The position numbers and the translations under genes are program-made. Under the pieces are notes generated by a model, which was not told the origin of the DNA, did no database searches, and was given only the letters and a program-made list of their open reading frames with translations. A stretch of 64,000 nucleotides of DNA from Candidatus Blackburnbacteria bacterium (lineage in GTDB: Bacteria > Patescibacteriota > Microgenomatia > UBA8517 > UBA10165), in assembly GCA_016183565.1 (NCBI GenBank), contig JACPEJ010000001.1, positions 293,241 to 357,240 of the forward strand. The letters are read 5' to 3'. Every line of letters begins with the position of its first letter. The stretch's first letter is position 1. Below, piece after piece: positions 25,415-64,000 of this stretch.

Positions 25415-26494
25415 ATGGAATCGTTGCGCGAAAAATTAGGTGAGTTGAGGGGCCGTTTGGGTGTGCTTCTTACTGCTTCAGATTTGGACCAGAAGCGCAA
25501 AAGTTTGCGGGAACTTGAAGCGCGAGCGATAAAACCTGACTTTTGGGATGATGCTGAACAAGCAAGAGGGGTGATGTCGGAGATAAGCGTGCTTCAAGAG
25601 GAAATTGCGATTCTAGAGGGTTTGGAGCAGCAAATTTCGGATGCTTTTTCTGTTGTAGATGAGCCTGAACTTGAGCAAGAGTTATACGAAGCGATTGGAA
25701 AAATAAATAGAGATATTTCCCGGCTTGAGGTTTCTACTTTTCTTTCTGGTGAATACGATAAGAATGATGCGATTCTTGCAATTCATTCTGGCCAGGGTGG
25801 AACGGAAGCTATGGATTGGGCACAGATGCTTTTTCGTATGTATGTGAGGTATGCACAGAGTAGAGATTGGAAAGTGGAGGTTTTGGAAGAGAATTCGGGT
25901 GAGGAAGCTGGAATAAAATCTGCAACTCTTCTTGTCTCTGGTCGTTGGGCGTATGGTTATTTACGGGGAGAATCGGGTACTCATCGGCTTGTTCGACAAT
26001 CACCTTTTAATGCGGATAAATTGCGTCAAACATCGTTTGCTTTGGTTGAAGTGTTGCCGAAGATTGAGGAGGCCCCGGATATAGAGATAAAGGAGGATGA
26101 TCTCGAGTGGCAGTTCTTCCGCGCCTCAAGCCAGGGTGGGCAGAATGTGCAAAAGGTTTCAACAGCTGTAAGGGTTGTACACAAGCCAACTGGAATTATT
26201 GTTACTTCTCAGACTGAGAGATACCAGGAACAAAACAGGAAGATAGCCTTGAGTCTTTTGCGGGCAAAGCTTTGGTTGCGACAAAAGATACAGAGGGAGG
26301 AGAATCTTAAGGAGATTAAGGGGGATTATCGTCCTGCTGCTTGGGGTACACAAATTCGTTCGTATGTGCTGCATCCATACAAAATGGTTAAGGATTTGCG
26401 TACTAGCGTTGAGACTGGTGACACAGAGGGAGTTTTGGATGGGAAACTTGATGAGTTTATCGATGCAGAGCTTCGCTTATTGGCCGGTGTTTAA
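25415..26494 (+). CDS. prfB: Peptide chain release factor 2; contiguous ORF, no programmed +1 frameshift
   Basis: SPF tripeptide motif (RQSPFNA), GGQ motif (SSQGGQNVQKV). Collinear with E. coli RF2. Confidence 0.9.
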   Translation: MESLREKLGELRGRLGVLLTASDLDQKRKSLRELEARAIKPDFWDDAEQARGVMSEISVLQEEIAILEGLEQQISDAFSVVDEPELEQELYEAIGKINRDISRLEVSTFLSGEYDKNDAILAIHSGQGGTEAMDWAQMLFRMYVRYAQSRDWKVEVLEENSGEEAGIKSATLLVSGRWAYGYLRGESGTHRLVRQSPFNADKLRQTSFALVEVLPKIEEAPDIEIKEDDLEWQFFRASSQGGQNVQKVSTAVRVVHKPTGIIVTSQTERYQEQNRKIALSLLRAKLWLRQKIQREENLKEIKGDYRPAAWGTQIRSYVLHPYKMVKDLRTSVETGDTEGVLDGKLDEFIDAELRLLAGV

Positions 26495-27007: not shown

Positions 27008-27691
27008 TTGTGTATGATCAAGTTCGAGAATGTAACGAAAAAGTTTGGTTCTACTGTAGCACTTGAAGATATTTCCTTCGAAATAGAAAAGGGAGAGTTT
27101 GTATTTTTGACTGGTCATTCTGGTAGTGGAAAAACTACCCTGATTCGTCTTTTATTGAGGGAACTTTCTCCGACTTCAGGCAAGATTTTAATAGAAGGTA
27201 AAGAGTTGGGTATGGTGAGAAAGCATGAACTCCCTTTTTACAGGAGAAAGGTAGGTGTTGTTTTTCAGGACTTCAAGTTGTTATCTAATATGACGGTTTA
27301 TGAGAATGTGCGTTTGGCTTGTGAGATTGATGGCCACGTAAGCGATGTTGAAGAGAAAAAGATTCAAGAGGTGTTGCACGAGGTTGGTATGACAGCTAAG
27401 CAAGGTCTTTTTCCACGACAGCTTTCTGGGGGTGAAACACAACGGGCGGTTATTGCTCGAGTTTTGGTTATGCAGCCGAAAGTGATTTTGGCTGATGAAC
27501 CCACTGGCAATCTAGATCCTCAAACTGCACGGCAAATTATCGATCTTCTTGAAAAAGCCAGTGAAGGGGAGACTACGGTTCTTGTTGCTACACACAACGC
27601 TCTTATAGTTAATGATCTCAAGCGTCGTGTAATACAGCTTAAAGAAGGTAAGTTAGTTGGAGATTGTAAAAAGGGAAAGTATATTGATTAA
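27008..27691 (+). CDS. ftsE: Cell-division ABC ATPase FtsE
   Basis: Walker [13 protein letters not shown] signature LSGGETQR, Walker [12 protein letters not shown]. Confidence 0.9.
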
Positions 27692-28592
27692 TATGCATAC
27701 TGCCTGGAAACATATTAGGCGTTCTCCTTATCAAGCACTTACTGCGGTGTTTATAATGACGCTGACCTTTTTTGTAGCAACTGTGTTGGTTGTGTTGGCT
27801 TACGGTACTTCGACTGTTTTGCGTTACTATGAAACTCGGCCTCAAGTTATAGCCTATCTTAAGGCGGACGTAACTCCTTCTGATGTTTCTTCGCTCCAGG
27901 TGAAACTTGAGTCGGATTCGAGGGTGGAGGGAGTGAAGTATGTTTCAAAAGAGCAAGCTTTGGATATATATAAGCAAGCTACTTCTAGTAATCCACTCCT
28001 TGCGGAATTTGTAAGTCCTAAGATATTTCCTGCTAGCTTGGAGTTTTCTGTTCGTGATCTTGCTTTTGCGCAAGAAGTTATTTCCCAGCTTGGTGAAGAA
28101 GCGACAATAGAGGAAGTTGCGTTTACTGCTAATTTAGGTGATTCTAAAAATTTAAATCAAGTTGTGGAGAGATTAAGTAGTGTGGCTAATTACGTTAGGA
28201 TAGGAGGAGCAGTGGTTTTGGGCTTTCTTCTTGCGTCATCCTTTCTTGTACTTTTGATAATTATTGGGATGCGGATATCTTCTAGGCGGGAGGAGATAGA
28301 AATACTTCAGTTGATAGGGGCAACCTCTGGTTTTATCAGGAGCCCTTTTATTCTAGAAGGCATGTTTTATGTTGTTGTGGGAAGCGTTGTTGGTTGGCTT
28401 TTGACTCTTTTGCTAACTCTTTATGTGTCGCCGTCGTTGATTTCCTTTTTTCAGGGAGTTCCTTTTTTACCACAGGATCTTTTTTCTTTGTTGGAACTTT
28501 TTGGGGTAGTGCTTGCTGGAGAGTTTTTGCTTGCTATAATACTGGGTGCTTTAGGTAGTTTAATAGCGATTAAGAGATATCTTAAAATATGA
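27657..28592 (+). CDS. ftsX: Cell-division permease FtsX
   Basis: N-terminal TM, periplasmic domain, 3 C-terminal TMs. Overlaps and is coupled to ftsE. Confidence 0.85.
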   Translation: MEIVKRESILINMHTAWKHIRRSPYQALTAVFIMTLTFFVATVLVVLAYGTSTVLRYYETRPQVIAYLKADVTPSDVSSLQVKLESDSRVEGVKYVSKEQALDIYKQATSSNPLLAEFVSPKIFPASLEFSVRDLAFAQEVISQLGEEATIEEVAFTANLGDSKNLNQVVERLSSVANYVRIGGAVVLGFLLASSFLVLLIIIGMRISSRREEIEILQLIGATSGFIRSPFILEGMFYVVVGSVVGWLLTLLLTLYVSPSLISFFQGVPFLPQDLFSLLELFGVVLAGEFLLAIILGALGSLIAIKRYLKI

Positions 28593-28593
28593 T

Positions 28594-29790
28594 ATGGGTT
28601 TTCGAAAAATTCATTTAAACAGAATACTTCTTGTAGTTTTTACCTCATTTGCAATTGCACTTTTGTCATTTTCTCAGGTAATAGATCCGCCTCTAACTTT
28701 GGCGCTGGAGAATGAGTCGCCCGACCAAAAACTTGAGAGGATAAGAAAGCAGATTGAGGAAGCACAAAAGCTTCTTGATCAAACAAAACTTCGGAAAGTA
28801 ACTCTTCAAAACGAGATTGTATACCAGGATCAGCAAATTCAGCTGACTACACTTAAGATTCAAGAAACCGAGGAGGAAATAACTGCTCTTACGGGACAGA
28901 TTAGTCGCTTGGAGAACGCGTTGACAGACTTGTCGGAGATTTTTACACAACGTGTTGTAGAGACTTACAAAATAAAGAGGTTGGGGGATTCTCTTACATT
29001 ACTTATTTCTTCGAGTAATGTTTCAGATTTTATTTCGCGTTTTTATTACCTTCAAAAAATTGCTCAACAGGATAGAAATACTTTAATCCAGATGCAGACC
29101 ACTCAGACAAATTACGAGGGACAGAGAGAGAAGAGAGAGGAGTTACGTAAAAAGTTGGAGGGTCAAAAAACTCAATTGGCAGCTCAAAAGATCCAAAAAC
29201 AGAATCTTTTGGAGGTTACAAAAAATGACGAGAAGCGCTTCCAACAAATGTTATCGGCGGCTAGGGCGGAGCTGGAGGCTATTCAGGCAATTATTGCTGG
29301 TCGGGGGAAGGAGACAGAGGTGGGTAAAGTTAGTGCGGGGCAAAGGATTGCTTCGATGATACCTGGTACTTCCTGTAATTCTAGTGGGACCCACCTCCAT
29401 TTTATAGTTAGTCAAAATGGGGCAACGCAAAATCCGTTTGGGCATCTAAGGGGAGGAATAGATTATGAAAATTGTTCGGGTTCAGGTGCTTGTTCGGAAG
29501 GGGATCCATTTAATCCTAGTGGTTTTTGGGATTGGCCGATAAGTCCCAAAATCCGCTTTTTCCAAGGTTACGGATCTACGTGGGCGGTTACAAATACTTG
29601 GGTTGGAGGTATTTATAAGTTTCACAATGGTATTGATGTAAATAGTGCATCTTCTAGTGAAGTAAGAGCAGTAAGGTCTGGAACACTTTATAGGGGAAGT
29701 TATGCTGGTAGTAGTTGTAGTCTAAGGTACGTTCGGGTAGATCACGAAGATTCAGATTTAGATACGTTTTATTTGCATGTGGATTATTAG
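28594..29790 (+). CDS. EnvC/PcsB-like coiled-coil protein with C-terminal M23/LytM-like domain
   Basis: Long N-terminal coiled coil. C-terminal SGTHLHF... M23-like motif. Immediately downstream of ftsEX. Confidence 0.65.
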   Translation: MGFRKIHLNRILLVVFTSFAIALLSFSQVIDPPLTLALENESPDQKLERIRKQIEEAQKLLDQTKLRKVTLQNEIVYQDQQIQLTTLKIQETEEEITALTGQISRLENALTDLSEIFTQRVVETYKIKRLGDSLTLLISSSNVSDFISRFYYLQKIAQQDRNTLIQMQTTQTNYEGQREKREELRKKLEGQKTQLAAQKIQKQNLLEVTKNDEKRFQQMLSAARAELEAIQAIIAGRGKETEVGKVSAGQRIASMIPGTSCNSSGTHLHFIVSQNGATQNPFGHLRGGIDYENCSGSGACSEGDPFNPSGFWDWPISPKIRFFQGYGSTWAVTNTWVGGIYKFHNGIDVNSASSSEVRAVRSGTLYRGSYAGSSCSLRYVRVDHEDSDLDTFYLHVDY

Positions 29791-30648
29791 GTGAGAATGC
29801 TGAAACTTTTTAGGGCGACAATAATAAGTGGAATATTATTTTTTTTGATGGTTTCTCCTGCTTTTGCTGCTTTCGCCATCAGCGGTGTACCTGCAAGTAT
29901 AACTTCTGAGCAGGAGTTCCAGGTTACGGTTTCACTATCCATTAGCGGTTCTGCTGGTAACGTCTACTACTTGAGAGCTGCCTTTGCTCATCTGGACACC
30001 CCGAGTTCATATTTTGGTTACACAAAGGATAATGTCGGTGCTTGGTACAATGGAACACCATCGATCGATCACACAAAGTTTTACCAAGTTACAATGGACT
30101 CTTCAGGAACTTGGAATGGAACTGTTTCAGTTAAACCGGATTCACAAAGTTCTGCTTTCAAAGGTTCTGGAGATTATACACTTAAGGTGGGGAGGTATAC
30201 GGCGGCAGGTAGTGGTCCAACTTGGTCTGATGATTCGGTAACCATAACGATCTCTGCACCACCCACTTCTACTCCTACACCAACATCTACCCCGACGCCT
30301 ACTTCCGGGCCTACGTCAACTCCTACTCCGACTAATACTCCCACCCCTACGATGGGAAGTTTGGCGACTCCGACGCCTACTCGGGTGCCTACGAAAAAAC
30401 CGACTCCTACTCCGACTAAAGAATCCGTTGAGGAAGAGGACGGAGAAGTCTTTGTACTTGGTGCTCAAGACGTAAGTGCTTCTGTGACATCTACGCCGGA
30501 AGTAGTGGTTGAGGCGACAACTTCTGCGCAAGGAAAGAATTGGAAAACTCCTGTGTTTGCTGGTGTTTTGATAGTTGCTGGTGTTTCTCTTATTGGAATT
30601 TCTGCTTATTCCTTCCTTGCGAAGGGTAAAACTGGTAGAATTATGTGA
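29791..30648 (+). CDS. Secreted/cell-surface protein with signal peptide, Pro/Thr-rich repeat linker and C-terminal TM anchor
   Basis: Signal peptide ending PAFAAFA. (PTxTPT)n linker encoded by imperfect 18-nt repeats. C-terminal hydrophobic helix plus KGKTGR. Confidence 0.55.
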   Translation: MRMLKLFRATIISGILFFLMVSPAFAAFAISGVPASITSEQEFQVTVSLSISGSAGNVYYLRAAFAHLDTPSSYFGYTKDNVGAWYNGTPSIDHTKFYQVTMDSSGTWNGTVSVKPDSQSSAFKGSGDYTLKVGRYTAAGSGPTWSDDSVTITISAPPTSTPTPTSTPTPTSGPTSTPTPTNTPTPTMGSLATPTPTRVPTKKPTPTPTKESVEEEDGEVFVLGAQDVSASVTSTPEVVVEATTSAQGKNWKTPVFAGVLIVAGVSLIGISAYSFLAKGKTGRIM

Positions 30649-37771: not shown

Positions 37772-38515
37772 ATGGCTCAGAAACTTACGTTGAGTGTTAT
37801 TTTGCCTGTTTATAATGAGGAGAAGGATGTACCTAGAAATGTTCCTATTCTCTATAAGTATCTGAAAGAGAATTTTACTCAATATTCTTGGGAACTTATC
37901 ATTGCTGATAATGGTCCTTCTAAAGATAGAACTCCGGAAATCTCGAAAGAACTAACTAAGAACTATAGGAGTTTGTTTTATATTTGTATTCCACGGCCAG
38001 GGCGTGGGGGTGCGTTAAAAGAAGTTTGGCAAAAGCGAAAAAGTGACTACCTTTGCTATATGGATGTTGATTTGTCTTCAGATCTTTCCTTTTTGTCTCA
38101 ACTTATTTCCTTTCTAGAGAATGGTGCTGATATTGCTATCGGTTCACGTCTTAAGAGGGGGGCTAAGGTGTATGGTCGGACACTCTTACGTGAGATAATG
38201 TCCAGAGGCTATAATATCTTGATCCGAACCTTCTTTTGGACAAGCTTCTGCGATGCTCAGTGTGGATTCAAAGCGATTAGAAAAGAAGCAGCGATGAAGC
38301 TTTTACCGTATGTGGAGGATAAAGGTTGGTTTTTTGATTCAGAACTTTTGATAACTGGCGAGAAAGCGGGGTTTAAAATTAAAGAAGTTCCTATAGTTTG
38401 GCGTGATGATCCTGCTTCAACTGTTAAGGTTGCAAAAACTGCTTGGGGGGATATTAAGGGACTAGCAAGGCTTTTTATCACCAGGCCATGGAAAAAAATT
38501 CAAAATTCAAAATAA
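37772..38515 (+). CDS. GT2 glycosyltransferase (DPM/DPG-synthase-like); last 7 codons and stop lie in heptamer repeats
   Basis: ILPVYNEEKD...IIADNGPSKD...DVDLS motifs. C-terminus ...PWKKIQNSK* is encoded by AAAATTC repeats. Confidence 0.85.
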   Translation: MAQKLTLSVILPVYNEEKDVPRNVPILYKYLKENFTQYSWELIIADNGPSKDRTPEISKELTKNYRSLFYICIPRPGRGGALKEVWQKRKSDYLCYMDVDLSSDLSFLSQLISFLENGADIAIGSRLKRGAKVYGRTLLREIMSRGYNILIRTFFWTSFCDAQCGFKAIRKEAAMKLLPYVEDKGWFFDSELLITGEKAGFKIKEVPIVWRDDPASTVKVAKTAWGDIKGLARLFITRPWKKIQNSK

Positions 38516-41070: not shown

Positions 41071-42633
41071 ATGATTGAGAAAACAGCGAGAGGGTGGCAA
41101 AAATCTTTAGGGAAAGAAATTTCTAGAAATAAGCTTTTGTATTTTTTGCTCTTTTTGGTTTTGGCCTTAGGGTTTTTCTTCCGGGTTTATCGAACAGATG
41201 AGATTTTGGGTTTTTATTATGATCAGGGTCGGGATGGTTTAGTTATCTGGGACTTTTTGCATAAAGGTAAGCTGTTTTTGATAGGACCAACAACAGGGAT
41301 AGAGGGAATTTTTAGAGGGCCTTGGTACTACTGGCTTATTGCGCCTTTTTACTTCTTCGGAGGAGGTGATCCTGTTTGGCCAGCAGTGTTTTTGGCGTTT
41401 ACCACTATTGTTGCCACAATACTAGCTTATTACTTTGGAACTCTAATATCAGGAAGGCTTACGGGTTTTGTCGCTGCGGTAATCTCTGCTTTCTCCTTTT
41501 TCTTTATAGTTGGGGCCCGGTGGCTTTCAAACCCAACTCCAATGTTTCTTATAAGTATGCTTTTTGTTTGTTCGCTTTTTCTTATTATGACAGGCAAGCG
41601 TTGGGCATGGATTGCTGTTGGGTTTTTCTTGGGTATGGCAATGCAATTTGGGAGTGCAGCGGAAATATTTTACTTTCCTGTTGTATTAGGGTTTGCTGTT
41701 TGGCTCGCCTCGCGAAGCGGGCAAAGACGGAATTTGCCATCCTTGAGAGTGCTGGTTGTGGCTTTGGCAGCGTTTGTTGTAGCTTTTCTTCCTCAGATAG
41801 TTTTTGACTTAAAGCACGATGGTGTTTTGAGTGTAGCTATTAAAAAGTTTTTGTTTAGCGGGGAAAGTTTTAAGTTGTCATTTTGGGAAATAGTGAAAGT
41901 TCGTTCTTTGTTCTACTTTACGACTTTTTCTGCGAAACTATTTCCGACGAATTCTGAACTTAGGGAGATTTTTGGTTGGTTTCTCATTCCGATTTTTTTG
42001 ATAAATATAAAATCTTTATTCAGAAACTCACGTTTTGTGTTGGTGTTGGCTTTGTTGGTTACTCCTATGGTTGGTATGTTTTTTTTCCAGGGGAATTACA
42101 AAAATGTTTATGACTATTATTTTACTGGTTATTATTTGATCTTTGTTCTTGTTTTTTCGGTCATTTTGACAAGCTTTGGCAAAAGAGAGATAACGAAATT
42201 GTTAGTTGGATTATTTTTAGTATTTTTCTTATTTGACAACTTATCTATGGTTAAAAAGCTTATTTATACGGATGTTAACCGTGAGACAAGTATCGTACTA
42301 GGTAGTCAGCTTCAAGCTATCACTTGGGTTTTTAATAATTCACGAGGAGAGCTTTTTAATGTGGATGTTTATGTACCTCCTGTTATTCCTTGGGCGTACG
42401 ACTATCTTTTTCTGTGGCAGGCAAACAGACGCTGTGGCCAAAACCTATGTCAAATGCAGATGGTCGAGCAAGCCCCGTTACTATATACTTTATACGAGAT
42501 TGACCCGCCACATCCCGAGAGACTTGAGGCATGGCTTGAGAGACAAAGGGGGATAGGGAAAGTTGAGGATAGAATCAAGTTTGGCGGGATTACTGTTGAA
42601 AGGAGAACTCGTTTAGTAAATGTCCAAGAGTAA
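41071..42633 (+). CDS. GT-C glycosyltransferase, GT39/ArnT-like (paralog family of 38488/16394/62064)
   Basis: FYYDQGRD...IGPTTGIEG..GPWYYWLIAP motif; 12+ TMs. Confidence 0.75.
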   Translation: MIEKTARGWQKSLGKEISRNKLLYFLLFLVLALGFFFRVYRTDEILGFYYDQGRDGLVIWDFLHKGKLFLIGPTTGIEGIFRGPWYYWLIAPFYFFGGGDPVWPAVFLAFTTIVATILAYYFGTLISGRLTGFVAAVISAFSFFFIVGARWLSNPTPMFLISMLFVCSLFLIMTGKRWAWIAVGFFLGMAMQFGSAAEIFYFPVVLGFAVWLASRSGQRRNLPSLRVLVVALAAFVVAFLPQIVFDLKHDGVLSVAIKKFLFSGESFKLSFWEIVKVRSLFYFTTFSAKLFPTNSELREIFGWFLIPIFLINIKSLFRNSRFVLVLALLVTPMVGMFFFQGNYKNVYDYYFTGYYLIFVLVFSVILTSFGKREITKLLVGLFLVFFLFDNLSMVKKLIYTDVNRETSIVLGSQLQAITWVFNNSRGELFNVDVYVPPVIPWAYDYLFLWQANRRCGQNLCQMQMVEQAPLLYTLYEIDPPHPERLEAWLERQRGIGKVEDRIKFGGITVERRTRLVNVQE

Positions 42634-43375
42634 TTTACCATTTTTGTCTGTTGTTGTACCAGCATATAACGAAGAACAGAACATTAGGAAAGGTGCTCCT
42701 GATCGGCTGATCTCGTATTTGGAAAAGCAGAACTATTCTTGGGAGGTACTTTTCGTTGATGACGGCTCGGTTGATGATACAGCAAAACTTCTTGAGAAAT
42801 ATAAAGACAAGAATAAGCGAATTTGTCTGATTAAAAATGCTCACCAAGGCAAGGCGGCGACAGTAATGACAGGGGTTATGGCTGCAACAGGACAGATTAT
42901 TTTGTTTACGGACACAGATCAGGCAACCCCAATAAAAGAGGTTGAAAAGTTCCTGCCTTATTTTGAGCAAGGATATGATGTGGTTATTGGTTCAAGACAC
43001 GGCAGGGCAGGGATGCCGTTTTTAAGAAAGGTAATGGCGTATGGATTTGTGATTCTAAGGACATTGGTATTGCGGCTTCCGTTTAAAGATACGCAAACTG
43101 GGTTTAAAGCTTTTTCAAAAGTTGCTGCTCATAAAATATTTAAGTCCTTGAGAATTTTTGGGCAAAGTGGAGTTATTAAAGGGGCTGCAGTGAAGGCAGG
43201 ATTTGACATAGAAATTCTTTTTGTGGCGAGAAAATTAGGACATAAAATTAGAGAAGTGCCTGTTGAGTGGCACCATCCTGGAACTACGAGAGTAAACCCC
43301 CTGAAGGATTCTATTGAGGCCTTAGGTGATATGCTACGTATTCGCTGGTATGCTCTTAGAGGTGAGTACAAATGA
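42620..43375 (+). CDS. GT2 polyprenol-phosphate sugar transferase (ArnC/DPM-like)
   Basis: VVVPAYNEEQNI...FVDDGSVDDT...DTDQ motifs. Directly upstream of and overlapping the ArnT-like GT83 gene. Confidence 0.85.
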   Translation: MSKSNLPFLSVVVPAYNEEQNIRKGAPDRLISYLEKQNYSWEVLFVDDGSVDDTAKLLEKYKDKNKRICLIKNAHQGKAATVMTGVMAATGQIILFTDTDQATPIKEVEKFLPYFEQGYDVVIGSRHGRAGMPFLRKVMAYGFVILRTLVLRLPFKDTQTGFKAFSKVAAHKIFKSLRIFGQSGVIKGAAVKAGFDIEILFVARKLGHKIREVPVEWHHPGTTRVNPLKDSIEALGDMLRIRWYALRGEYK

Positions 43376-47247: not shown

Positions 47248-48099
47248 TTAGGTAATGATGAAAATGTCTTGTTTTGAGTCACTTGTTCCTATGAATTCTC
47301 CTCCTCTACGATAGACTATCTCGAAGGGTTGGCATACGAAACAACCCACCTCTCCTTTTGGACACTTAAAACTTTGAAGTTGTCTTGCGAGTTTCATCCT
47401 TTTTGCAGTTTCGAGGACTTTTTCGTAGGCTTCGCTTGCATTGGGTAATCCAACTTCTTTTGGTGTGTTTTCTCGATCTAGGTACCAGTAACTTGCTTTG
47501 CTGACTTTTCTTTTTTGGAGGTTTGTTGCAAGGAGAAGATAGATGGGTAGTTGTAGAGAGTTTTCATCTTCGTCATGCTTCCCAGTTTTGAAGTCAACAA
47601 CATGGACGCTATCCTCTTCTTGTAGATATTCTAACCAATCGATTTTTCCACAAAGGATGATATTGTCTTTTTCCGATAGTAAGTAGTGTGGAGGGAGCCC
47701 TGAATCTTGTTTAATCTTTATGGCTTTATTGAGGAGCATACCGGGGTTTTCTAAAACTCTTTTTATCATACCCTTACCTCTTTCTTTGTACTCTGACTCC
47801 TCGTTCTCGTTTTTAAACCCTCCCGCTTTTCCTGAGATTTTACTCCACACTTCCTCAAATTGGTTGTGAAGCGATCTGTTAAGTCGCTGTTGGGCAGGTA
47901 GAACTGATAAGGATTCCAGTACGTCATGAACTGCTTGGCCTAAAGCCAGAGGTGGTTGCATTATGCTTATTCGATTGCCTGTTTTTGGGTTTTTGTAAAC
48001 GTGAGCAAGATAGTAGGCGCGCGGACACTGAAGGAACTTTACGATTGATGAGTGCGATACCCAGACAGTAGAATAGGGGTCCCGATTCACAAGCCTCAA
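47248..48099 (-). CDS. Cas4-like / RecB-family PD-(D/E)XK nuclease with 4-Cys (Fe-S) cluster, stand-alone
   Basis: N-terminal Cys in VKFLQCPRAYYL. Motifs IDWLEY and VVDFKTGK (D...D/ExK). QLPIYLLL (QhxxY). C-terminal CPKGEVGCFVC. No CRISPR array nearby. Confidence 0.6.
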   Translation of the reverse strand: MRLVNRDPYSTVWVSHSSIVKFLQCPRAYYLAHVYKNPKTGNRISIMQPPLALGQAVHDVLESLSVLPAQQRLNRSLHNQFEEVWSKISGKAGGFKNENEESEYKERGKGMIKRVLENPGMLLNKAIKIKQDSGLPPHYLLSEKDNIILCGKIDWLEYLQEEDSVHVVDFKTGKHDEDENSLQLPIYLLLATNLQKRKVSKASYWYLDRENTPKEVGLPNASEAYEKVLETAKRMKLARQLQSFKCPKGEVGCFVCQPFEIVYRRGGEFIGTSDSKQDIFIIT

Positions 48100-48250
48100 T
48101 TTACTCTTGGATTAATCAACCGTCAATTGGGTCAAACTGGGTCTTTTTAGTGCATTGACTGGGTGGTTTTAGACCGTTCGGGGAGTAAACAGGTAGACTA
48201 GAACCCCGAGGGCTAATACAACTCGTTTCAAAACTTGTAGATTAGTCTTA

Positions 48251-48451
48251 TTAGATTTTTTGAAACGAGATTGGAGAATTGGTTCTGATTATCATGATTG
48301 GTATTTCATTGTCTGATGTAATCACGACCGGTCTATCGAGCCCAGGCCTGTCATATATTAGATGGTCCCCTTTTGTTCTTTTTAATTTACACCCGATAAA
48401 CTTAAGAAACTTTTCAAATTTTCTTCTTTTGATTGGGGACAGCTGAGGCAT
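48251..48451 (-). CDS. hicA: HicA-family type II toxin (mRNA interferase)
   Basis: FLKFIGCKLKRTKGDHLIYDRPG...PVVIT resembles the HicA KGSHxxY core. 1-nt gap from the upstream hicB-like gene. Confidence 0.65.
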   Translation of the reverse strand: MPQLSPIKRRKFEKFLKFIGCKLKRTKGDHLIYDRPGLDRPVVITSDNEIPIMIIRTNSPISFQKI

Positions 48452-48452
48452 T

Positions 48453-48743
48453 TCAACAAGTTGGGTGGATTGTAAAATCTTGAGTTGCGCTTTCTACTAC
48501 GATTGGAGGGACCCACTCTTTCCTCTGTTTTTGCCAGCCTAGTTCAGACAGGACTTTATTGAGAGTACCCTTTTCTGATAACTCCTCGAGAAATACTTCG
48601 ACAACTTCTGCAAATCTTTTTTTCGCCTGGCCGAATGTTTTTCCTGAAGTGGCAAGATCCAGAGCTGGTGTATAGGCAACATAGTGTTTGCCTTCCTTAA
48701 GGACTAGAACGTGCAGAGAGATGTTGTAGTTTAACTGTGGCAT
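48453..48743 (-). CDS. hicB: HicB-family antitoxin (UPF0150 RNase-H-like fold)
   Basis: VLKEGKHYVAYTPALDLATSGKTFGQAKKRFAEVVEVFLEEL matches the HicB N-domain pattern. TTATACT -10 just upstream. Confidence 0.65.
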   Translation of the reverse strand: MPQLNYNISLHVLVLKEGKHYVAYTPALDLATSGKTFGQAKKRFAEVVEVFLEELSEKGTLNKVLSELGWQKQRKEWVPPIVVESATQDFTIHPTC

Positions 48744-48927
48744 GGTGAGTTTAGTATAACACTGGTTTGTAAGGATTGCATTTTTATCGTACCTGGAACC
48801 CTAATTTAAACCTTTTCCACATGTCTTCGGAGACTACGGAGACCTCCTCGCCGTCTACCCTAATTGCGTCTTGATCGTCGGGAGCATAGAAAGTTAAGGG
48901 TTGGGTTAGAATTTGGTAAGTACGTGG

Positions 48928-49737
48928 CTAATTTTTCTTTTGAAGATTTATCTTAAGCTGGTTAAGCCTTTTTATAGATAGGTCTAGATATTTTTGATTT
49001 ACGTCAATTCCTACAAACTTTCTGCCGTAAAGGTATGCTTCAAGGCCTGTGGTTGAGCTGCCGGTAAAAGGATCAAGGACGAGATCGCCTTGAAGGGTCG
49101 ATGCAAGAATGATTCTTCGCAAAAGTGCTGTGGGTTTTTGAGTTGGGTGTTTTCCAAATTTTTGCTCTTCTGGTCTAACGGAGTTTATTGCCCAAACACT
49201 TCTCATTTGCTCTCCAGGACTTTTTAGAAAATCTTCATTCCAGTTTGCATCTTTTACATATTTGTAATTGAATCTGTGTTTGGCGTTTTTATTTTTCTTT
49301 GCCCAGATGAGGGTTTCGTGGCTTGCTGTAAAAAACCTTTGACTTAAGTTGTAAGGAGCATTGGGTTTATACCACACAATTTCATTTAGTATGTGGAACC
49401 CTAGTTTTTGGAGCGCAAAGCCACAGGTGTGGATTGAGTGATAAGTGCCGCTTACCCAGATAGTGCCGTTGGGCTTTAAAACTCTTTGGCATTCCTTGAG
49501 CCAGGTCCGGTGGAATTCGAAATCTTTCTCTAGTCCTTGGCTCTTGTCCCATCCTCCCTTGTTGACAATTGTTTTGTGTCCAGAGTAAACACTAAATCCG
49601 TTATTTGATAGTCTATATGGAGGATCGACAAAGATAAGATCGAATTGTTCTCCAGTAAAATGGGGTAGTAGTTTTATGCAATCGCCAAGATAGAGTTTGA
49701 AGTTGTTGTTTTCAAAGTATGCTTTTGGCATGCTCAA
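48928..49737 (-). CDS. Beta-class DNA methyltransferase (N6-adenine or N4-cytosine), orphan
   Basis: Motif IV FVDPPY precedes motif I DPFTGSSTTG (beta-class order). ParB-less MTase_D12/N6_N4 family. Confidence 0.85.
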   Translation of the reverse strand: MSMPKAYFENNNFKLYLGDCIKLLPHFTGEQFDLIFVDPPYRLSNNGFSVYSGHKTIVNKGGWDKSQGLEKDFEFHRTWLKECQRVLKPNGTIWVSGTYHSIHTCGFALQKLGFHILNEIVWYKPNAPYNLSQRFFTASHETLIWAKKNKNAKHRFNYKYVKDANWNEDFLKSPGEQMRSVWAINSVRPEEQKFGKHPTQKPTALLRRIILASTLQGDLVLDPFTGSSTTGLEAYLYGRKFVGIDVNQKYLDLSIKRLNQLKINLQKKN

Positions 49738-51305: not shown

Positions 51306-52796
51306 GTGGTACAAGTTGAGGCTGCCTCGCATCTTGATTCTGTGGAAGTTTCTTTGGATGTTGTTAAAAAAAGAGCGATTTCTGGTGTATTGACGCTTAC
51401 TGGAAGAACATTTATTTTACAAGCTGTTAATCTTGTGGCGTTTTCCTTGCTCACGGTCTTCTTGGATCCAGTACAGTATGGGTTGTTTTTTTTGATTTCT
51501 GCGGTGGTGAACTTTTTTAATTATTTTTCCGATGTTGGCCTGGCGGCGGCACTTATTCAAAAGAAAGATAGAGTTACAAAAGAGGATTTACGAACAACTT
51601 TTACTGTTCAACAGGTGCTTATTGGGGTTTTGCTGATTGCTGTTTTTTTGCTTACTCCACTGTTTCGTCGATGGTACAACTTAGAAAATGAAGCAGTGTC
51701 TCTTCTTTGGGTACTTGCCTTTTCTTTGTTCTTGTCGTCACTAAAGACAATTCCATCTGTTCTTCTTGAGAGGCGTCTTGATTTTAACAAACTTGTTCTA
51801 CCACAAATAGTTGAAACTATACTTTTTAATGTTGTGGCAGTTTACCTTGCTTGGAAGGGATTTGGCATAACAAGTTTTACTATTGCTGTTTTAGTTAGAG
51901 GGATTTCTGGTCTTGTGTTGATTTATGTACTCCAGCCATGGGTTCCAGGTTTTGGGTTTGCAAAAGACTCTCTTAAGGGCTTGTTGCGATTTGGACTTCC
52001 TTATCAGGTAAATACATTTTTGGCACTTCTGAAGGATGATGGAATTACAATAGTGTTAGGGGGAATATTAGGACCTGCGGGAGTTGGACTGTTGGGCTGG
52101 GCACAGAAATGGGCTTTTGCTCCTTTGCGTTTTTTTATGGATCAGGTTATAAAAGTCACTTTTCCTGCGTTTTCTAGGATGCAGGATGGCAAGGAGGCTT
52201 TAATTCGAGCTGTTTCTCATGCAATCTTTTTTGTCTGTTTTTTAGTTTTTCCATCTTTGGTGGGTCTTTTGACTGTTGCGCCACTTTTGACGGAAATTAT
52301 TCCTCGGTATGAAAAGTGGCAGCCGGCGCTTGTTGCATTGGGGCTTTTTGGTGTTAACGCTGCCTTTGCTGCTATTACAACCCCCTTGACTAATATGTTT
52401 AGTGCAATTGGGAAAATAACTACTACGTTTCGGTTGATGATTATGTGGACTATTTTGACTTGGCTTTCTGTTCCGATACTGGCTATAAAGATGGGAGTTA
52501 ATGGAGCTGCTTGGGGAGCTGCCCTTGTTGGCTCAAGTTCGATAGTTGCTATTTGGATTGCTTATCGAGTTGTTCGGTTTAATTTTCTCTCTTCGGTTGG
52601 CAAGCCCTTTCTTGCGTCCGTCGTTATGGGTTTGGCTGTTTTGACTGCTCGTTCTGTACTTCCTGTTTCTGGTTATTCGGTAGCTGTAATTATTTTTTTG
52701 GGTATGTCTATATATAGTATAGTGAGTTTTGTTTTGATTGGGCCTACTTTGGTTTTGGATGCCAGAAAGGTTTGGAATGCGGTTCTTAAGAAGTGA
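51306..52796 (+). CDS. Wzx-like polysaccharide/oligosaccharide flippase (MOP/PST family)
   Basis: 496 aa, 12-14 TMs, typical PST-family topology and charged loops. Confidence 0.75.
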   Translation: MVQVEAASHLDSVEVSLDVVKKRAISGVLTLTGRTFILQAVNLVAFSLLTVFLDPVQYGLFFLISAVVNFFNYFSDVGLAAALIQKKDRVTKEDLRTTFTVQQVLIGVLLIAVFLLTPLFRRWYNLENEAVSLLWVLAFSLFLSSLKTIPSVLLERRLDFNKLVLPQIVETILFNVVAVYLAWKGFGITSFTIAVLVRGISGLVLIYVLQPWVPGFGFAKDSLKGLLRFGLPYQVNTFLALLKDDGITIVLGGILGPAGVGLLGWAQKWAFAPLRFFMDQVIKVTFPAFSRMQDGKEALIRAVSHAIFFVCFLVFPSLVGLLTVAPLLTEIIPRYEKWQPALVALGLFGVNAAFAAITTPLTNMFSAIGKITTTFRLMIMWTILTWLSVPILAIKMGVNGAAWGAALVGSSSIVAIWIAYRVVRFNFLSSVGKPFLASVVMGLAVLTARSVLPVSGYSVAVIIFLGMSIYSIVSFVLIGPTLVLDARKVWNAVLKK

Positions 52797-57093: not shown

Positions 57094-58123
57094 TATGCGT
57101 GCTGTAATTTATGATCCCTATCTTGATACTGGTGGTGGCGGGGAGCGTTATATTTTAACTGTTGCCAGCCTTTTAATAAAAAAGGGTTGGCAGGTTGACG
57201 TATGCTGGCCGGATCCTAAGATAGGCAATTGGCTTAAGGAAAGACTAGGTATCGATCTTTCAAAAGTTACTTTTGTAGACAATACGTCACGAGGGGCTGG
57301 TTATGATTTAGTTTTCTGGCTTTCGGATGGGAGCATTCCTTTGTTGTTTGGTAAGAAAAATATTTTACACTTTCAGACGCCTTTTCAAAATGTAGGAGGT
57401 AAATCTATTTTAAATAAGGTAAAGTTCTTAAGGGTTAGTAGTGTTGTTTGTAATTCAAAGTTTACAAAGAGTTTTATAGATAAGGAATATGGAGTAACGA
57501 GCGTTGTTGTTTACCCGCCGGTTGATACCGAATTATTTAAACCGGGGAGGAAAGAAAATATTATTCTTTTTGTTGGTAGGTTTTCCCAATTGCAACAGTT
57601 AAAGCGCCAGGATGTTTTAGTTGAAAATTTTGGAAGGATGTGTGGTGCGGGTCTTAAGAATTGGAGACTGGTTTTGATTGGTGGTAGTGAAGTTGGTGGT
57701 AGGGAGTATGTTAAAGAACTAAGAGAGAAGGCAGTTTCTTTGCCGATTGATATCCTTGAGAATTTGCCTCTTCAAGAGGTGCAAAAATATTATGCTGAGT
57801 CAAAGATATTTTGGTCTGCTGTTGGGTATGGGGTAGATGAATTAGAATCACCTTATCAAGTCGAGCATTTTGGAATGAGTGTTGTGGAGGCACAGGCGGC
57901 TGGTTGTGTTCCTGTGGTTATTTCTAAGGGTGGACACAAAGAGATAATAGTAAATGGAGAGAATGGGTTGTTGTGGGTGGAAGACGGGGAGTTGAGAGAA
58001 GCAACACTTCAATTGATTAAAGACGAAAGGAGGATGAGAGAAATTGCCAAGAAAGCAAAAGAGGATGCGGAGAGATTCTCAGTCCAAGAGTTCAAGAGGA
58101 AAATTTTGGAAACTATTAGTTAG
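57053..58123 (+). CDS. GT4 glycosyltransferase (GT-B fold)
   Basis: C-terminal E...FGMSVVEAQAAGCVPVVISKGGHKEII GT4 signature. Confidence 0.85.
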   Translation: MLNCGKYNKEVVGDMRAVIYDPYLDTGGGGERYILTVASLLIKKGWQVDVCWPDPKIGNWLKERLGIDLSKVTFVDNTSRGAGYDLVFWLSDGSIPLLFGKKNILHFQTPFQNVGGKSILNKVKFLRVSSVVCNSKFTKSFIDKEYGVTSVVVYPPVDTELFKPGRKENIILFVGRFSQLQQLKRQDVLVENFGRMCGAGLKNWRLVLIGGSEVGGREYVKELREKAVSLPIDILENLPLQEVQKYYAESKIFWSAVGYGVDELESPYQVEHFGMSVVEAQAAGCVPVVISKGGHKEIIVNGENGLLWVEDGELREATLQLIKDERRMREIAKKAKEDAERFSVQEFKRKILETIS

Positions 58124-59207
58124 AATATGGCCGACATTTGCAATTATCGCAGTTGTATTAATTTTCTTCTATCCTGTTTGGGTTAAAAATTTAATACCTC
58201 TTCCTGCTGACTTTGTTGTGGGTGTTTATTATCCTTGGCTTGACTATAAGTGGGGGTTTTCTGTAGGGGTACCGGTTAAGAACCCCATGACTACGGATGT
58301 TGTTTCGTTTGTATATCCAATGCAAATGTTGGCTATTGATCTTATTAAGAGTGGACAATGGCCTTTGTGGAATCCTTATATCTTAACCGGAACTCCTCTT
58401 CTTGCTAATTTTCAGTCAGCTCCGTTTTCTCCAACGAACTTTGTTTATTTCCTTTTTGACAGATTGACGGCGTGGAGTGTGCAGGTTGCTTTGCAGCATT
58501 TTTTGGCGGCGATATTTACCTATCTCCTGCTTCGTTACTGGAAAGTTTCAAGATTGTCATCTGTTTTAGGAGGTGTGATTTTTGCTTTTAGCGGATTTAA
58601 TACTATTTGGTCTCAGTGGAATGGGCATGCCTTATCAGGAGCGTTTATACCTTTATTAATTCTTCTTGAAGATAGGTGGTTAAAAATTGGCAAATGGCGA
58701 GATGGTGCGTTGTTTTCGGTTGTACTATCGGCACAAATCTTGTCAGGTTATCCACAAGTGGTTTTTTATACAGGAGTTGCGTTAGTGTTATTGGCAATTT
58801 TTAGGTTTGAGAAAACAACAAGATGGTTGGGAAGATTGGGTGGATTGGGGATATTTGGATTGTTGGGAATTGGGTTGTCGTCTTTTCAAATTTTACCCGG
58901 TGCGGAGCTTCTTTCTCTATCTCAGCGAGAGATAGAGCCACATCCTTATGGGTGGGCTTTTTTGCCTTGGGTTAAAATAATTACATTTTTGGCTCCTGAT
59001 TACTTTGGAAATCATGCAACTCAGAATTACTGGGGGCCTCAAGATTATACGTCAAATACTGGTTTTGTAGGGGTAGTGGCATTTAGCTTAGCTGTGGCGG
59101 GAGCTATGCTATTGAGAAAAAAGCGAGAAGTTATTTACATTGTGCTTGTGTTAGTGTTTGCACTCCTTTTATCTTTTCCTACCCCAATCTCAGTGTTTTT
59201 ATGGTAA
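58044..59207 (+). CDS. YfhO-family membrane protein, N-terminal part (ends at in-frame TAA 59205..59207)
   Basis: GQWPLWNPYILTGTPLLANFQSAPFSP matches the YfhO LPLWNPY..G.P motif. Confidence 0.6.
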   Translation: MPRKQKRMRRDSQSKSSRGKFWKLLVRIWPTFAIIAVVLIFFYPVWVKNLIPLPADFVVGVYYPWLDYKWGFSVGVPVKNPMTTDVVSFVYPMQMLAIDLIKSGQWPLWNPYILTGTPLLANFQSAPFSPTNFVYFLFDRLTAWSVQVALQHFLAAIFTYLLLRYWKVSRLSSVLGGVIFAFSGFNTIWSQWNGHALSGAFIPLLILLEDRWLKIGKWRDGALFSVVLSAQILSGYPQVVFYTGVALVLLAIFRFEKTTRWLGRLGGLGIFGLLGIGLSSFQILPGAELLSLSQREIEPHPYGWAFLPWVKIITFLAPDYFGNHATQNYWGPQDYTSNTGFVGVVAFSLAVAGAMLLRKKREVIYIVLVLVFALLLSFPTPISVFLW

Positions 59208-59279
59208 AGCGGTCTCTTTGGTTTTCAAGCTGCGTCAGCACATAGGGCGTTAGTCCTATTTAATTTAAGTGTTGCTCTT

Positions 59280-60512
59280 TTGGCAGCGTTTGGAGCGGAC
59301 TGTTTTTTGGAGACAGGAAAACTGCGACTGAGAACACTTTTGCCGGCTTTTTCGATTTTGATAGTTTTTAGTGTTATATCTGTCTATTTTTATCTTAACC
59401 CTCCTTCTGTTATTGATCCTACCAACAACAATCTTTTTGGGGCGGAGCGGGCTGATTACCGGGTAGGATTGCGGAACTTAGTTTTGCCAATTCTTGCATT
59501 TTTTTCGTCTCTCCTGGTTTTTAAGGTGACTGGTGGCGTGAACAGAGTTCGTCAGTTGAGTCTTGTACTAGTTTTTTTGATTATGCTAACAGAGCTTTAC
59601 TGGTTTTGGGCGAAATTTACGCCTTTTTCTCCAAGAAGGATTGTATTCCCCAAAACACCAGTTTTAGAGTTTTTGGAAAAACAGGAAAAGCCCTTTAGAA
59701 CTACTGGTTATAAAGTAATTCCGATAAACATGAGGATGCCGTACAAAATTGAAACTTTAGAAGGTTATGATGCAATCTATCCACTTTCGCTATCGCAGTT
59801 TGTTGCCGCTATAACTAGTGGAAAAAGTGGGACTCAGCCTGTTGGTAGGTATGCCACAATAGGTGACGAAACGGTCAAAGCGTTGGATTTGGTGAATGTT
59901 AAGTATGTTATTGCTGTAAAAAGAGATGAGCGGAGTAGGCCGTCTCCCGAAGGGAAGATTGCTTCCTCTTTGGAGAATCCAAAGCTGCAATTGGCTTACG
60001 AGGATAAATCAGTTGTAGTTTTGGAGAGCCGGAATGTTTTACCTCGTGCTTTTGTGGTTTACTCTTGGGAAAGGTCATTAGGGAACAAGACGCTAGATCG
60101 TTTTCTTGATCCAGATTTTCCGATTAGTGAAAAAGTTTTTCTAGAGGAAGAACTTGGGTTTGTAAATAAGGCAGCAGGAAAAGGAGAATCTAGTGTGCTC
60201 TACGAAAAATATAGTGATCAAGAAAGTATGTTTAAGGTGAGAACCTCAAAGGATGGTCTTTTGTTTGTTTCTGATACATACTATCCAGGTTGGAAGGCAT
60301 ATGTAGATGATGTTGAAACGAAGATATATAAGGCCAATTTCGCGTTTAGGGCTATAGCAGTTCCAGCTGGAGAGCATGTTGTGAAGATGACTTATAAACC
60401 TGACTCCTTTTTTAATGGATTGAGGCTATCAGCTATTTCTTTGACGTTTCTTTTGTTGGGTGGAGTTACTAAGGTACTTATTGGCAGGAAACATGGAAAA
60501 GCCTATACTTGA
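59280..60512 (+). CDS. YfhO-family membrane protein, C-terminal part; same frame as 58044..59207
   Basis: 59280-58044 = 1236 = 3x412. No other stop between 59208 and 59279 (SGLFGFQAASAHRALVLFNLSVALLAAFGA...). Combined length 822 aa is typical for YfhO. Confidence 0.55.
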   Translation: MAAFGADCFLETGKLRLRTLLPAFSILIVFSVISVYFYLNPPSVIDPTNNNLFGAERADYRVGLRNLVLPILAFFSSLLVFKVTGGVNRVRQLSLVLVFLIMLTELYWFWAKFTPFSPRRIVFPKTPVLEFLEKQEKPFRTTGYKVIPINMRMPYKIETLEGYDAIYPLSLSQFVAAITSGKSGTQPVGRYATIGDETVKALDLVNVKYVIAVKRDERSRPSPEGKIASSLENPKLQLAYEDKSVVVLESRNVLPRAFVVYSWERSLGNKTLDRFLDPDFPISEKVFLEEELGFVNKAAGKGESSVLYEKYSDQESMFKVRTSKDGLLFVSDTYYPGWKAYVDDVETKIYKANFAFRAIAVPAGEHVVKMTYKPDSFFNGLRLSAISLTFLLLGGVTKVLIGRKHGKAYT

Positions 60513-63602: not shown

Positions 63603-64000
63603 TGAAGGAACTATCTGTAGTAATTGTTAATTATAATACTGGTGAGTTGTTGGGAAAATGTGTTGATTCAGTCAAAAAAACAGCAGGGTTCGCTGAAATT
63701 ATAGTTGTTGATAATGCATCGACTGATGGATCGGGCCGCGCTTTGCGGAATTTTCAATTTTCAATTTTCAATTTTCAATTTATAGAAAACAAAAAGAACT
63801 TGGGGTTTGCAAGGGCTGTAAATCAGGGAATAAAAAAAGCGAAGGGGGAATATATTCTGCTTCTCAACCCTGATACTGTTGTTGAGCCAAAGGCGATTGA
63901 TAATATGCTTCAGTTTGCAAAGCTGGAACCTTCTGTGGGTGCAATAGGTGCTAGGTTGTTGAATCCAGACGGTTCGGTTCAGGGGTCTGTTATGCACTTT
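63602..64000 (+). CDS. GT2 glycosyltransferase (3'-truncated by window edge) containing an in-frame heptanucleotide repeat tract
   Basis: ATG at 63602 overlaps the upstream TAA (TAATG). MKELSVVIVNYNTGELL...VVDNASTDGS...ENKKNLGFARAVNQG. Not in the ORF track because there is no stop within the window. Confidence 0.8.
   Translation, partial: MKELSVVIVNYNTGELLGKCVDSVKKTAGFAEIIVVDNASTDGSGRALRNFQFSIFNFQFIENKKNLGFARAVNQGIKKAKGEYILLLNPDTVVEPKAIDNMLQFAKLEPSVGAIGARLLNPDGSVQGSVMHF
63740..63772. repeat. Heptanucleotide tandem repeat (AATTTTC)x4 plus a partial unit inside the GT2 coding sequence
   Basis: Encodes NFQFSIFNFQF between the DGS and ENKKNLGFA motifs. Unit length is not a multiple of 3. Confidence 0.85.

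What the first reader, a model, noticed from the sequence alone, without database searches (positions are those of the whole stretch)
59205..59207. Single in-frame TAA splits an otherwise intact 822-aa YfhO-family glycosyltransferase gene
ORFs 58044..59207 and 59280..60512 are in the same frame, separated only by TAA at 59205..59207; the 72 nt after it have no further stop. Both halves match YfhO family architecture: the LPLWNPY motif in the N-part and a hydrophobic continuation ...FNLSVALLAAFGADCF in the C-part. This could be a recent nonsense pseudogene, a sequencing or assembly error, a programmed readthrough/recoding site, or a regulatory split. RF2 (prfB) is present and intact in the window, so UGA is a stop here. 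UAA readthrough would be unusual.
Basis: seen in the sequence. Interest (0 to 1): 0.55.

Follow-up and report, generated by a model that had tools for sequence, protein, structure and literature searches.

The report
One-base stop private to this assembly
The stop codon that splits this membrane glycosyltransferase gene is a single G-to-T difference found only in the deposited genome; other assemblies of the same groundwater bacterium carry an intact gene, so this is an ordinary mutation or an assembly error, not a special decoding signal.

Summary
TAA at 59205-59207 lies in frame inside a YfhO-family (GT-C fold) glycosyltransferase gene. The likely start is ATG 58065, giving 815 codons rather than 822.

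The cause is trivial. Twelve per-run public (Logan) contigs from seven sequencing runs of the same population cover 56,678 of the 64,000 window bases. They are identical to the window except at 59205, where they have G (GAA, Glu381). All four contigs that span the site encode an intact 815-aa protein. The split form exists only in the NCBI MAG (Candidatus Blackburnbacteria, 686-kb contig), where it is annotated as two CDSs.

All 120 best homologues are single ~800-aa proteins with K/E/R/Q at this column. The 24 residues after the stop include near-invariant G..A..AHR and precede any possible restart codon.

Recoding is not supported:
- TAA is the commonest terminator in the window (29/59 ORFs).
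- RF2 is present.
- There is no suppressor tRNA in the window.
- There is no significant RNA structure after the stop.

Verdict: a non-programmed, private nonsense base. It is either a real, very recent or rare loss-of-function allele or a consensus error; only the reads can decide. Low interest.

The parts
58065..60512 (+). YfhO-family GT-C glycosyltransferase gene: 815 codons plus stop when codon 381 is read as GAA, as it is in sister assemblies
   Evidence: An intact 815-aa gene is called at the matching coordinates in Logan loci L001, L002 and L005. It scores 91 bits against PF09586, cut-off 28.5. The AlphaFold model has pLDDT 86.1 and pTM 0.90. The top 27 Foldseek PDB hits are all GT-C enzymes: AftD, ArnT, STT3/PglB/AglB, Emb, ALG9.
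59205..59207 (+). In-frame TAA. Base 59205 is T in the window and G (GAA, Glu381) in other assemblies of the same population
   Evidence: Searches show the sequence. Searches show that 59205 is the only internal mismatch across 56,678 covered window bases. At this column the homologues have K 78, E 14, R 9, Q 7 of 120.
58065..59207 (+). N-terminal fragment ORF (380 aa), annotated in the source MAG as MBI2268186.1 'YfhO family protein'
   Evidence: One search found an exact match to the NCBI protein, on one contig of 686,250 bp. In the model this fragment covers the helices up to residue 382.
59208..59279 (+). 72 nt (24 codons) left untranslated in the TAA allele. It encodes the most conserved block of the family (SGLFGFQAASAHRALVLFNLSVAL)
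   Evidence: Five columns that are at least 95% conserved lie here: G, A, A, H, R, with R in 120/120. There is no in-frame ATG/GTG/TTG.
59280..60512 (+). C-terminal ORF as annotated (410 aa, TTG start; MBI2268187.1). It is probably not translated independently
   Evidence: One search confirms the annotation. The 13 nt before the TTG (AAGTGTTGCTCTT) contain no Shine-Dalgarno-like purine run. The ORF contains four membrane helices, a beta-rich domain (about residues 540-777) and a terminal TM helix.
25415..26494 (+). prfB (release factor 2), context only. RF2 reads UAA and UGA
   Evidence: TIGR00020 scores 434.9 bits against a cut-off of 370. PCRF and RF-1 domains are present. It is a single ORF.

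Best explanation
The locus encodes one ordinary 815-codon YfhO-family GT-C membrane glycosyltransferase, sitting in a large cell-surface glycan gene cluster. The deposited MAG differs from every other available assembly of the same, otherwise monomorphic, groundwater population by one base: G to T at 59205, changing GAA (Glu381) to TAA.

Nothing is programmed here. UAA is read as a normal stop by the release factors. If the base is real, translation ends after residue 380. The product then lacks the conserved G..AASAHR segment, four further membrane helices, the roughly 240-residue beta-rich extracytoplasmic domain and the C-terminal anchor. That would be a null allele that arose very recently, since the gene carries no other lesion.

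Shown: the single-base difference, the intact allele elsewhere, and the lack of any recoding signature.

Inferred: loss of function of the truncated product.

Not resolvable here: whether the T is a genuine rare or sample-specific allele that the assembler captured, or a consensus/assembly error. I put these near 45:55. Every spanning per-run assembly shows G, and the MAG shows no other sign of being a distinct strain.
For: - L001/L005 (SRR12113422) and L002 (SRR12113385) match the window base for base apart from 59205, G against T.
- Twelve Logan loci from seven runs cover 56,678 window bases (98,191 run-bases) with no other internal mismatch.
- The intact 815-aa product is on 4 Logan contigs. 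That is every contig that spans the site: of the 5 contigs carrying the adjacent methyltransferase, the fifth (L003) does not reach the gene.
- The 380-aa and 410-aa products occur only on the single NCBI contig.
- 120 of 120 homologues are unsplit, with K/E/R/Q at the column.
- The window gene keeps 139 of 140 columns that are at least 95% conserved: 93/93 before the stop and 46/47 after it.
- TAA ends 29 of 59 ORFs in the window, and RF2 is present.
- The only tRNAs in the window are Gln-CTG and Glu-CTC.
- The RNA after the stop folds no better than shuffled sequence (z = -1.06).
- The runs lie in the same accession block as SRR12113421, which belongs to PRJNA640378. In that project each filter was assembled separately with MEGAHIT (PMC7906910).
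Against: - No reads were available, so the allele frequency in the MAG's own source sample is unknown.
- The link between the MAG and BioProject PRJNA640378 is inferred from sequence identity and run numbering, not read from a record.
- Only 64 kb of the 686-kb genome was visible, so a suppressor tRNA or other in-frame TAAs elsewhere cannot be formally excluded.
- Loss of function of the 380-aa fragment is inferred from conservation and a predicted structure, not tested.
Confidence: 0.93

Rival explanations
1. Programmed UAA readthrough or codon reassignment: the ribosome inserts an amino acid at TAA and makes the full-length enzyme.
For: The frame stays open for 72 nt after the stop, and both halves are perfectly conserved. 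Some other Patescibacteria lineages do use an altered code (UGA as Gly; own knowledge).
Against: - The same population has GAA here in all 4 spanning contigs.
- No homologue has a stop at the column.
- TAA is the most used terminator in the window, 29/59 ORFs.
- RF2 is intact.
- There is no suppressor tRNA in the window.
- There is no significant downstream structure.
- No other gene in the window is interrupted in frame.
Confidence: 0.02
2. A natural or regulatory split: the enzyme is made as two polypeptides (380 aa and 410 aa) that assemble, as the NCBI annotation of two CDSs implies.
For: NCBI annotates two 'YfhO family protein' CDSs. The cut falls in a short helix between membrane helices.
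Against: - All 120 homologues and the sister assemblies are single polypeptides.
- The first possible start for part 2 is TTG 59280. It has no Shine-Dalgarno-like sequence and would drop 24 residues, including near-invariant G, A, A, H, R.
- The nearest ATG (59201) is out of frame and runs into a TAG within about 14 codons.
Confidence: 0.02
3. An established pseudogene: the gene has been dead in this lineage for some time and is decaying.
For: A premature stop lies in the middle of the gene.
Against: Apart from the one base, the gene is identical to the intact allele over its whole length. It keeps 139/140 highly conserved columns. The intact allele is the one seen in all other assemblies.
Confidence: 0.02

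Closest known systems
YfhO GT-C glycosyltransferases of Firmicutes (B. subtilis BSU08610, S. aureus SAOUHSC_01213, L. monocytogenes Lmo1079). These are the extracytoplasmic component of three-part CsbB/GtcA/YfhO systems that add GlcNAc to lipoteichoic or wall teichoic acid (PMC5836110, PMC8035078)
   Same: It belongs to the same Pfam family, PF09586 (91 bits). It has a GT-C fold. It has the same overall build: an N-terminal multi-helix membrane module plus a large extracytoplasmic C-terminal domain. It sits among GT2, GT4 and flippase genes.
   Different: The sequence relationship is distant. The host is a Patescibacteria (Blackburnbacteria) organism whose acceptor polymer is unknown. No adjacent CsbB-type GT2 with C-terminal TM helices or GtrA-type flippase was identified. 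In this record the gene carries a premature stop.
Streptococcus mutans PgfM1/PgfM2 (YfhO-type protein-glycosylation enzymes)
   Same: There is weak similarity at the C-terminal end, about 70 residues (NF047590 34.8 bits, NF047589 20.8 bits).
   Different: The scores are far below the equivalog cut-offs of 1500 and 1400 bits, so it is not a member.
Ordinary nonsense alleles or consensus errors in metagenome-assembled genomes that annotation pipelines turn into two adjacent CDSs with the same name
   Same: There is one base change and otherwise perfect conservation. The two halves are annotated separately as 'YfhO family protein'. The intact allele appears in sister assemblies.
   Different: Nothing differs in kind. 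The only open point is whether the base is real.
Stop-codon reassignment in Patescibacteria (genetic code 25, UGA = Gly, in Gracilibacteria/Absconditabacteria; own knowledge)
   Same: The superphylum is the same, and there is an in-frame stop inside a conserved gene.
   Different: The codon is different (UAA). All three stop codons terminate ORFs in this window: TAA 29, TAG 16, TGA 14. RF2 is present. The stop is not shared even by the same population.

Membership tests
YfhO family (Pfam PF09586) | Scores above the Pfam gathering cut-off (28.5 bits) | tested here: met
   The restored 815-aa protein scores 91.0 bits, with a stretch at residues 122-665 crossing the junction. The C part alone scores 59.1 bits. 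The N part alone scores 27.3 bits, just under the cut-off.
YfhO family (Pfam PF09586) | A single polypeptide of about 750-850 aa with an N-terminal polytopic membrane module, an extracytoplasmic C-terminal domain and a terminal TM helix | tested here: met
   Homologues are 713-825 aa. The model shows long helices up to residue 518, a beta-rich domain at about 540-777, and a helix at 780-811.
GT-C fold glycosyltransferases | Three-dimensional similarity to solved GT-C enzymes | tested here: met
   Foldseek against the PDB returns only GT-C enzymes in the top 27 hits: AftD 6w98 (E = 3e-7), ArnT 5ezm (E = 2e-6, TM-score 0.53 normalised to the target), STT3, PglB, AglB, EmbA/B/C and ALG9. The model has pLDDT 86.1 and pTM 0.90.
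GT-C fold glycosyltransferases | Transfer of a sugar from a polyprenyl-phosphate donor to an extracytoplasmic acceptor | not testable with these tools
   This is a biochemical property, inferred only from family membership (PMC8035078).
PgfM1 / PgfM2 equivalogs (NCBIfam NF047589 / NF047590) | Score above the equivalog cut-off | tested here: not met
   20.8 and 34.8 bits against cut-offs of 1400 and 1500.
Programmed stop-codon readthrough / codon reassignment | The stop is conserved at the site in orthologues and in the same population | tested here: not met
   0 of 120 homologues have a stop at the column. All 4 other contigs that span the site have GAA.
Programmed stop-codon readthrough / codon reassignment | The codon is not used as an ordinary terminator, or the cognate release factor is missing | tested here: not met
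   TAA ends 29 of 59 ORFs of at least 100 aa. RF2 is present and full length.
Programmed stop-codon readthrough / codon reassignment | A suppressor tRNA that reads UAA | tested here: inconclusive
   The window holds only tRNA-Gln(CTG) and tRNA-Glu(CTC). The other ~620 kb of the genome was not available.
Programmed stop-codon readthrough / codon reassignment | A stimulatory RNA structure just after the stop | tested here: not met
   Region 59195-59300 folds at -26.7 kcal/mol, z = -1.06, and 30 of 200 shuffles fold at least as well.
Naturally split two-ORF gene | Orthologues are also two ORFs, and the second ORF has its own start and keeps all conserved residues | tested here: not met
   Orthologues are single ORFs. 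The first start is TTG 59280, with no SD-like sequence, and it loses five columns that are at least 95% conserved.
Decayed pseudogene | Several lesions or relaxed constraint | tested here: not met
   There is one base difference from the intact allele over the whole gene. 139 of 140 conserved columns are retained.

The most novel reading that the evidence does not exclude
The TAA is a real allele that reached high frequency in one filter or time-point sample of an otherwise clonal episymbiotic Blackburnbacteria population. It did so because knocking out this surface-glycan GT-C enzyme is advantageous, for example by allowing escape from a phage or changing host attachment. That would be a natural loss-of-function sweep caught in a groundwater time and size-fraction series.
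Probability: 0.08. Interest if true: 0.3.

Novelty: already known. Interest (0 to 1): 0.06.

Why it matters
It matters mostly as a quality-control point. The public record annotates two 'YfhO family protein' CDSs (MBI2268186.1 and MBI2268187.1), whereas the population's gene is a single 815-aa protein. Users of this MAG should treat the pair as one gene with a questionable base.

It also shows that in-frame stops in Patescibacteria MAGs should be checked against sister assemblies before recoding is invoked. If the allele is real, it is a very young null mutation in a surface-glycosylation gene. That is of modest interest for the population genetics of host-attached ultrasmall bacteria.

Tried and rejected
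- Exact-pattern scans, with N at the variable codon or base, of GTDB species-representative genomes and JGI metagenome contigs found nothing. Neither collection holds this organism.
- The look-up of encoding contigs for the 380-aa and 410-aa products returned nothing. The listing of cluster members later showed that they exist only in the NCBI record.
- The look-up of the 908-aa product of 13505-16231 returned nothing. Logan contigs break inside that gene at 14127, so it says nothing about variation.
- Recoding was considered and rejected on stop-codon usage, RF2, the tRNAs and the RNA fold.
- I asked whether the TAG between 28594-29790 and 29791-30648 is a second in-frame break. It is not: the downstream ORF starts with its own signal peptide.
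- A PDB sequence search with the restored protein found no solved relative. Fold comparison was needed to show the GT-C fold.
- A literature search for 'Blackburnbacteria' gave nothing relevant.
- I looked for CsbB-like C-terminal TM helices in the neighbouring GT2 proteins and found none that were convincing.

Full report
**1. The observation**

The window reads ...TTA TGG TAA AGC GGT CTC..., with TAA at 59205-59207. Translating 58044-60512 in one frame gives a single internal stop...TPISVFLW*SGLFGFQAASAHRALVLFNLSVALLAAFGADCF.... The 72 nt after the stop contain no stop and no ATG/GTG/TTG. The next possible start is TTG 59280.

Both halves match Pfam YfhO (PF09586). The N part matches profile positions 74-326 and the C part matches positions 755-835.

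Two minor corrections apply. The motif is WPLWNPY. The start used by gene callers is ATG 58065, giving 815 codons when restored.

**2. It is one gene in all relatives**

A search with the joined sequence returned more than 1,000 hits. The best 120 are single proteins of 713-825 aa, up to 62% identical, from Patescibacteria (Blackburnbacteria, Woesebacteria).

In their alignment the stop column holds K (78), E (14), R (9) and Q (7). It is preceded by an almost invariant W and followed by the most conserved block of the family, G..AASAHR, with R in 120/120.

The window gene keeps 139 of the 140 columns that are at least 95% conserved: 93/93 before the stop and 46/47 after it. Five of those columns lie in the 24 residues between the TAA and TTG 59280. 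So the second ORF could not be a self-sufficient natural subunit, and the gene shows no decay.

**3. The decisive result: the same population elsewhere has GAA**

I looked up exact products of neighbouring window genes in public per-run (Logan) assemblies. This brought in 12 loci from seven runs: SRR12113383, -384, -385, -420, -422, -424 and -430.

Together they cover 56,678 of the 64,000 window bases (98,191 run-bases). They are identical to the window everywhere except for two things. One is an 18-nt contig-end artefact in L002. The other is position 59205, where both fetched spanning contigs (SRR12113422 and SRR12113385) have G where the window has T. GAA encodes Glu, the second commonest residue at that column.

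The intact 815-aa product is recorded on 4 Logan contigs, which is every contig that spans the site. The 380-aa and 410-aa products exist only on one NCBI contig of 686,250 bp from 'Candidatus Blackburnbacteria bacterium'. There they are annotated as two 'YfhO family protein' CDSs, MBI2268186.1 and MBI2268187.1.

The runs lie in the accession block of SRR12113421, which belongs to PRJNA640378. That project is the groundwater study of He et al. 2021. Each physical filter was assembled separately with MEGAHIT and scaffolded with IDBA-UD (PMC7906910). That the MAG comes from this project is an inference from sequence identity.

**4. No sign of recoding**

- TAA is the commonest terminator in the window. 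Of 59 ORFs of at least 100 aa, 29 end in TAA, 16 in TAG and 14 in TGA.
- RF2 is present as a full-length single ORF at 25415-26494.
- The only tRNAs are Gln(CTG) and Glu(CTC).
- The RNA after the stop folds no better than shuffled sequence (z = -1.06).
- The six other '+'-strand same-frame ORF pairs separated by one stop are neighbouring genes with their own start codons: a class II aaRS with an HD protein, an aaRS with PMT_2, M23/PcsB with a secreted protein, PMT_2 with a Wzx-like flippase, two complete GT2 genes, and one short pair with no family hit.

**5. What the gene is and what the stop would do**

The restored protein scores 91 bits on PF09586. Its AlphaFold model has pLDDT 86.1 and pTM 0.90. 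The model matches only GT-C glycosyltransferases at the top of a PDB fold search: AftD, ArnT, STT3/PglB/AglB, Emb and ALG9.

In Firmicutes, YfhO is the GT-C component that transfers a sugar from an undecaprenyl-phosphate carrier to teichoic acids outside the membrane (PMC5836110, PMC8035078). Here the gene sits in a dense cluster of GT2, GT4, PMT_2-type GT-C, flippase and methyltransferase genes. A role in surface glycan or protein glycosylation is therefore the reasonable inference. The acceptor is unknown.

Codon 381 lies in a short helix (374-382) between membrane helices. A stop there removes:
- the conserved AASAHR segment;
- four long helices (392-518);
- the beta-rich domain (about 540-777);
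- the C-terminal anchor.

The truncated product is thus very probably inactive. This is inferred, not tested.

**6. Interpretation**

The TAA is a non-programmed, single-base (G to T) difference private to the deposited MAG. Two sub-readings remain and cannot be separated without reads.

(a) It is a real, very young or rare nonsense allele that the assembler captured in one filter sample.

(b) It is a consensus or assembly error.

Reading (b) is favoured, or at least a minority allele is, for three reasons:
- All spanning per-run assemblies show G.
- The MAG shows no other difference in 56.7 kb that would mark it as a distinct strain.
- The change destroys a strongly conserved gene.

Reading (a) has support too. 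Consensus errors at high Illumina coverage are rare, and loss-of-function variants in surface-glycan genes are common in nature (own knowledge).

I put it near 45:55 for (a):(b). Either way the finding is ordinary. Readthrough, a natural split and an old pseudogene each get about 2%.

**7. Novelty and score**

This is a known gene family, a known kind of lesion or artefact, and no new mechanism. Interest is low (0.06).

The most novel reading still open is a selected loss-of-function sweep in an otherwise clonal episymbiont population, with probability about 0.08. It would be of modest interest.

Noticed in passing
window 27008-30648: An ftsE/ftsX pair (27008-28592) is followed by a PcsB-like protein (28594-29790). 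Its M23 peptidase match covers only profile positions 1-53 of 96 and ends at the protein's C-terminus (...FYLHVDY*), so the HxH half of the domain is missing. The next ORF, in the same frame straight after the TAG, starts with its own signal peptide, so this is not a split gene. The arrangement is identical in Logan loci L008 and L009. It may be a degenerate, EnvC-like regulatory M23 domain.
   Followed up: partly
window 23401-63602: There is an unusually dense run of membrane GT-C-type glycosyltransferases. Six are PMT_2-like genes, starting at 23401, 38488, 41071, 43372, 49746 and 62064. The seventh is the YfhO gene. They are interleaved with at least six GT2 genes, one GT4, a Wzx-like flippase (51306-52796) and a methyltransferase. 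Two short GT2 genes (37772-38515 and 42620-43375) overlap the start of a PMT_2 gene, like GT-A/GT-C pairs.
   Followed up: partly
window 25415-26494: prfB is encoded as one uninterrupted 359-aa ORF that matches the whole TIGR00020 profile. It lacks the programmed +1 frameshift found in many bacteria.
   Followed up: no
window 14127, 33720, 35246, 63775: Independent per-run Logan contigs from different runs break at the same window positions. The break at 63775 coincides with an (AATTTTC)n tandem repeat. The break at 14127 lies inside the 908-aa ORF 13505-16231, whose exact product is not on record. The others are unexplained; they may be repeats shared with other parts of the genome or with other community members.
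   Followed up: partly
window 47248-49737: A small block sits on the minus strand in the middle of the glycan cluster. It holds a PD-(D/E)XK/Cas4-like nuclease (47248-48099), a 96-aa ORF and an N6/N4 DNA methyltransferase (48928-49737). It may be a restriction-modification or mobile insertion.
   Followed up: no
L002 positions 1-18 (window 57453-57470): The first 18 bases of the SRR12113385 contig do not match the window, while the remaining 3,889 bases do, apart from 59205. This looks like a contig-end assembly artefact or a junction with another sequence.
   Followed up: no
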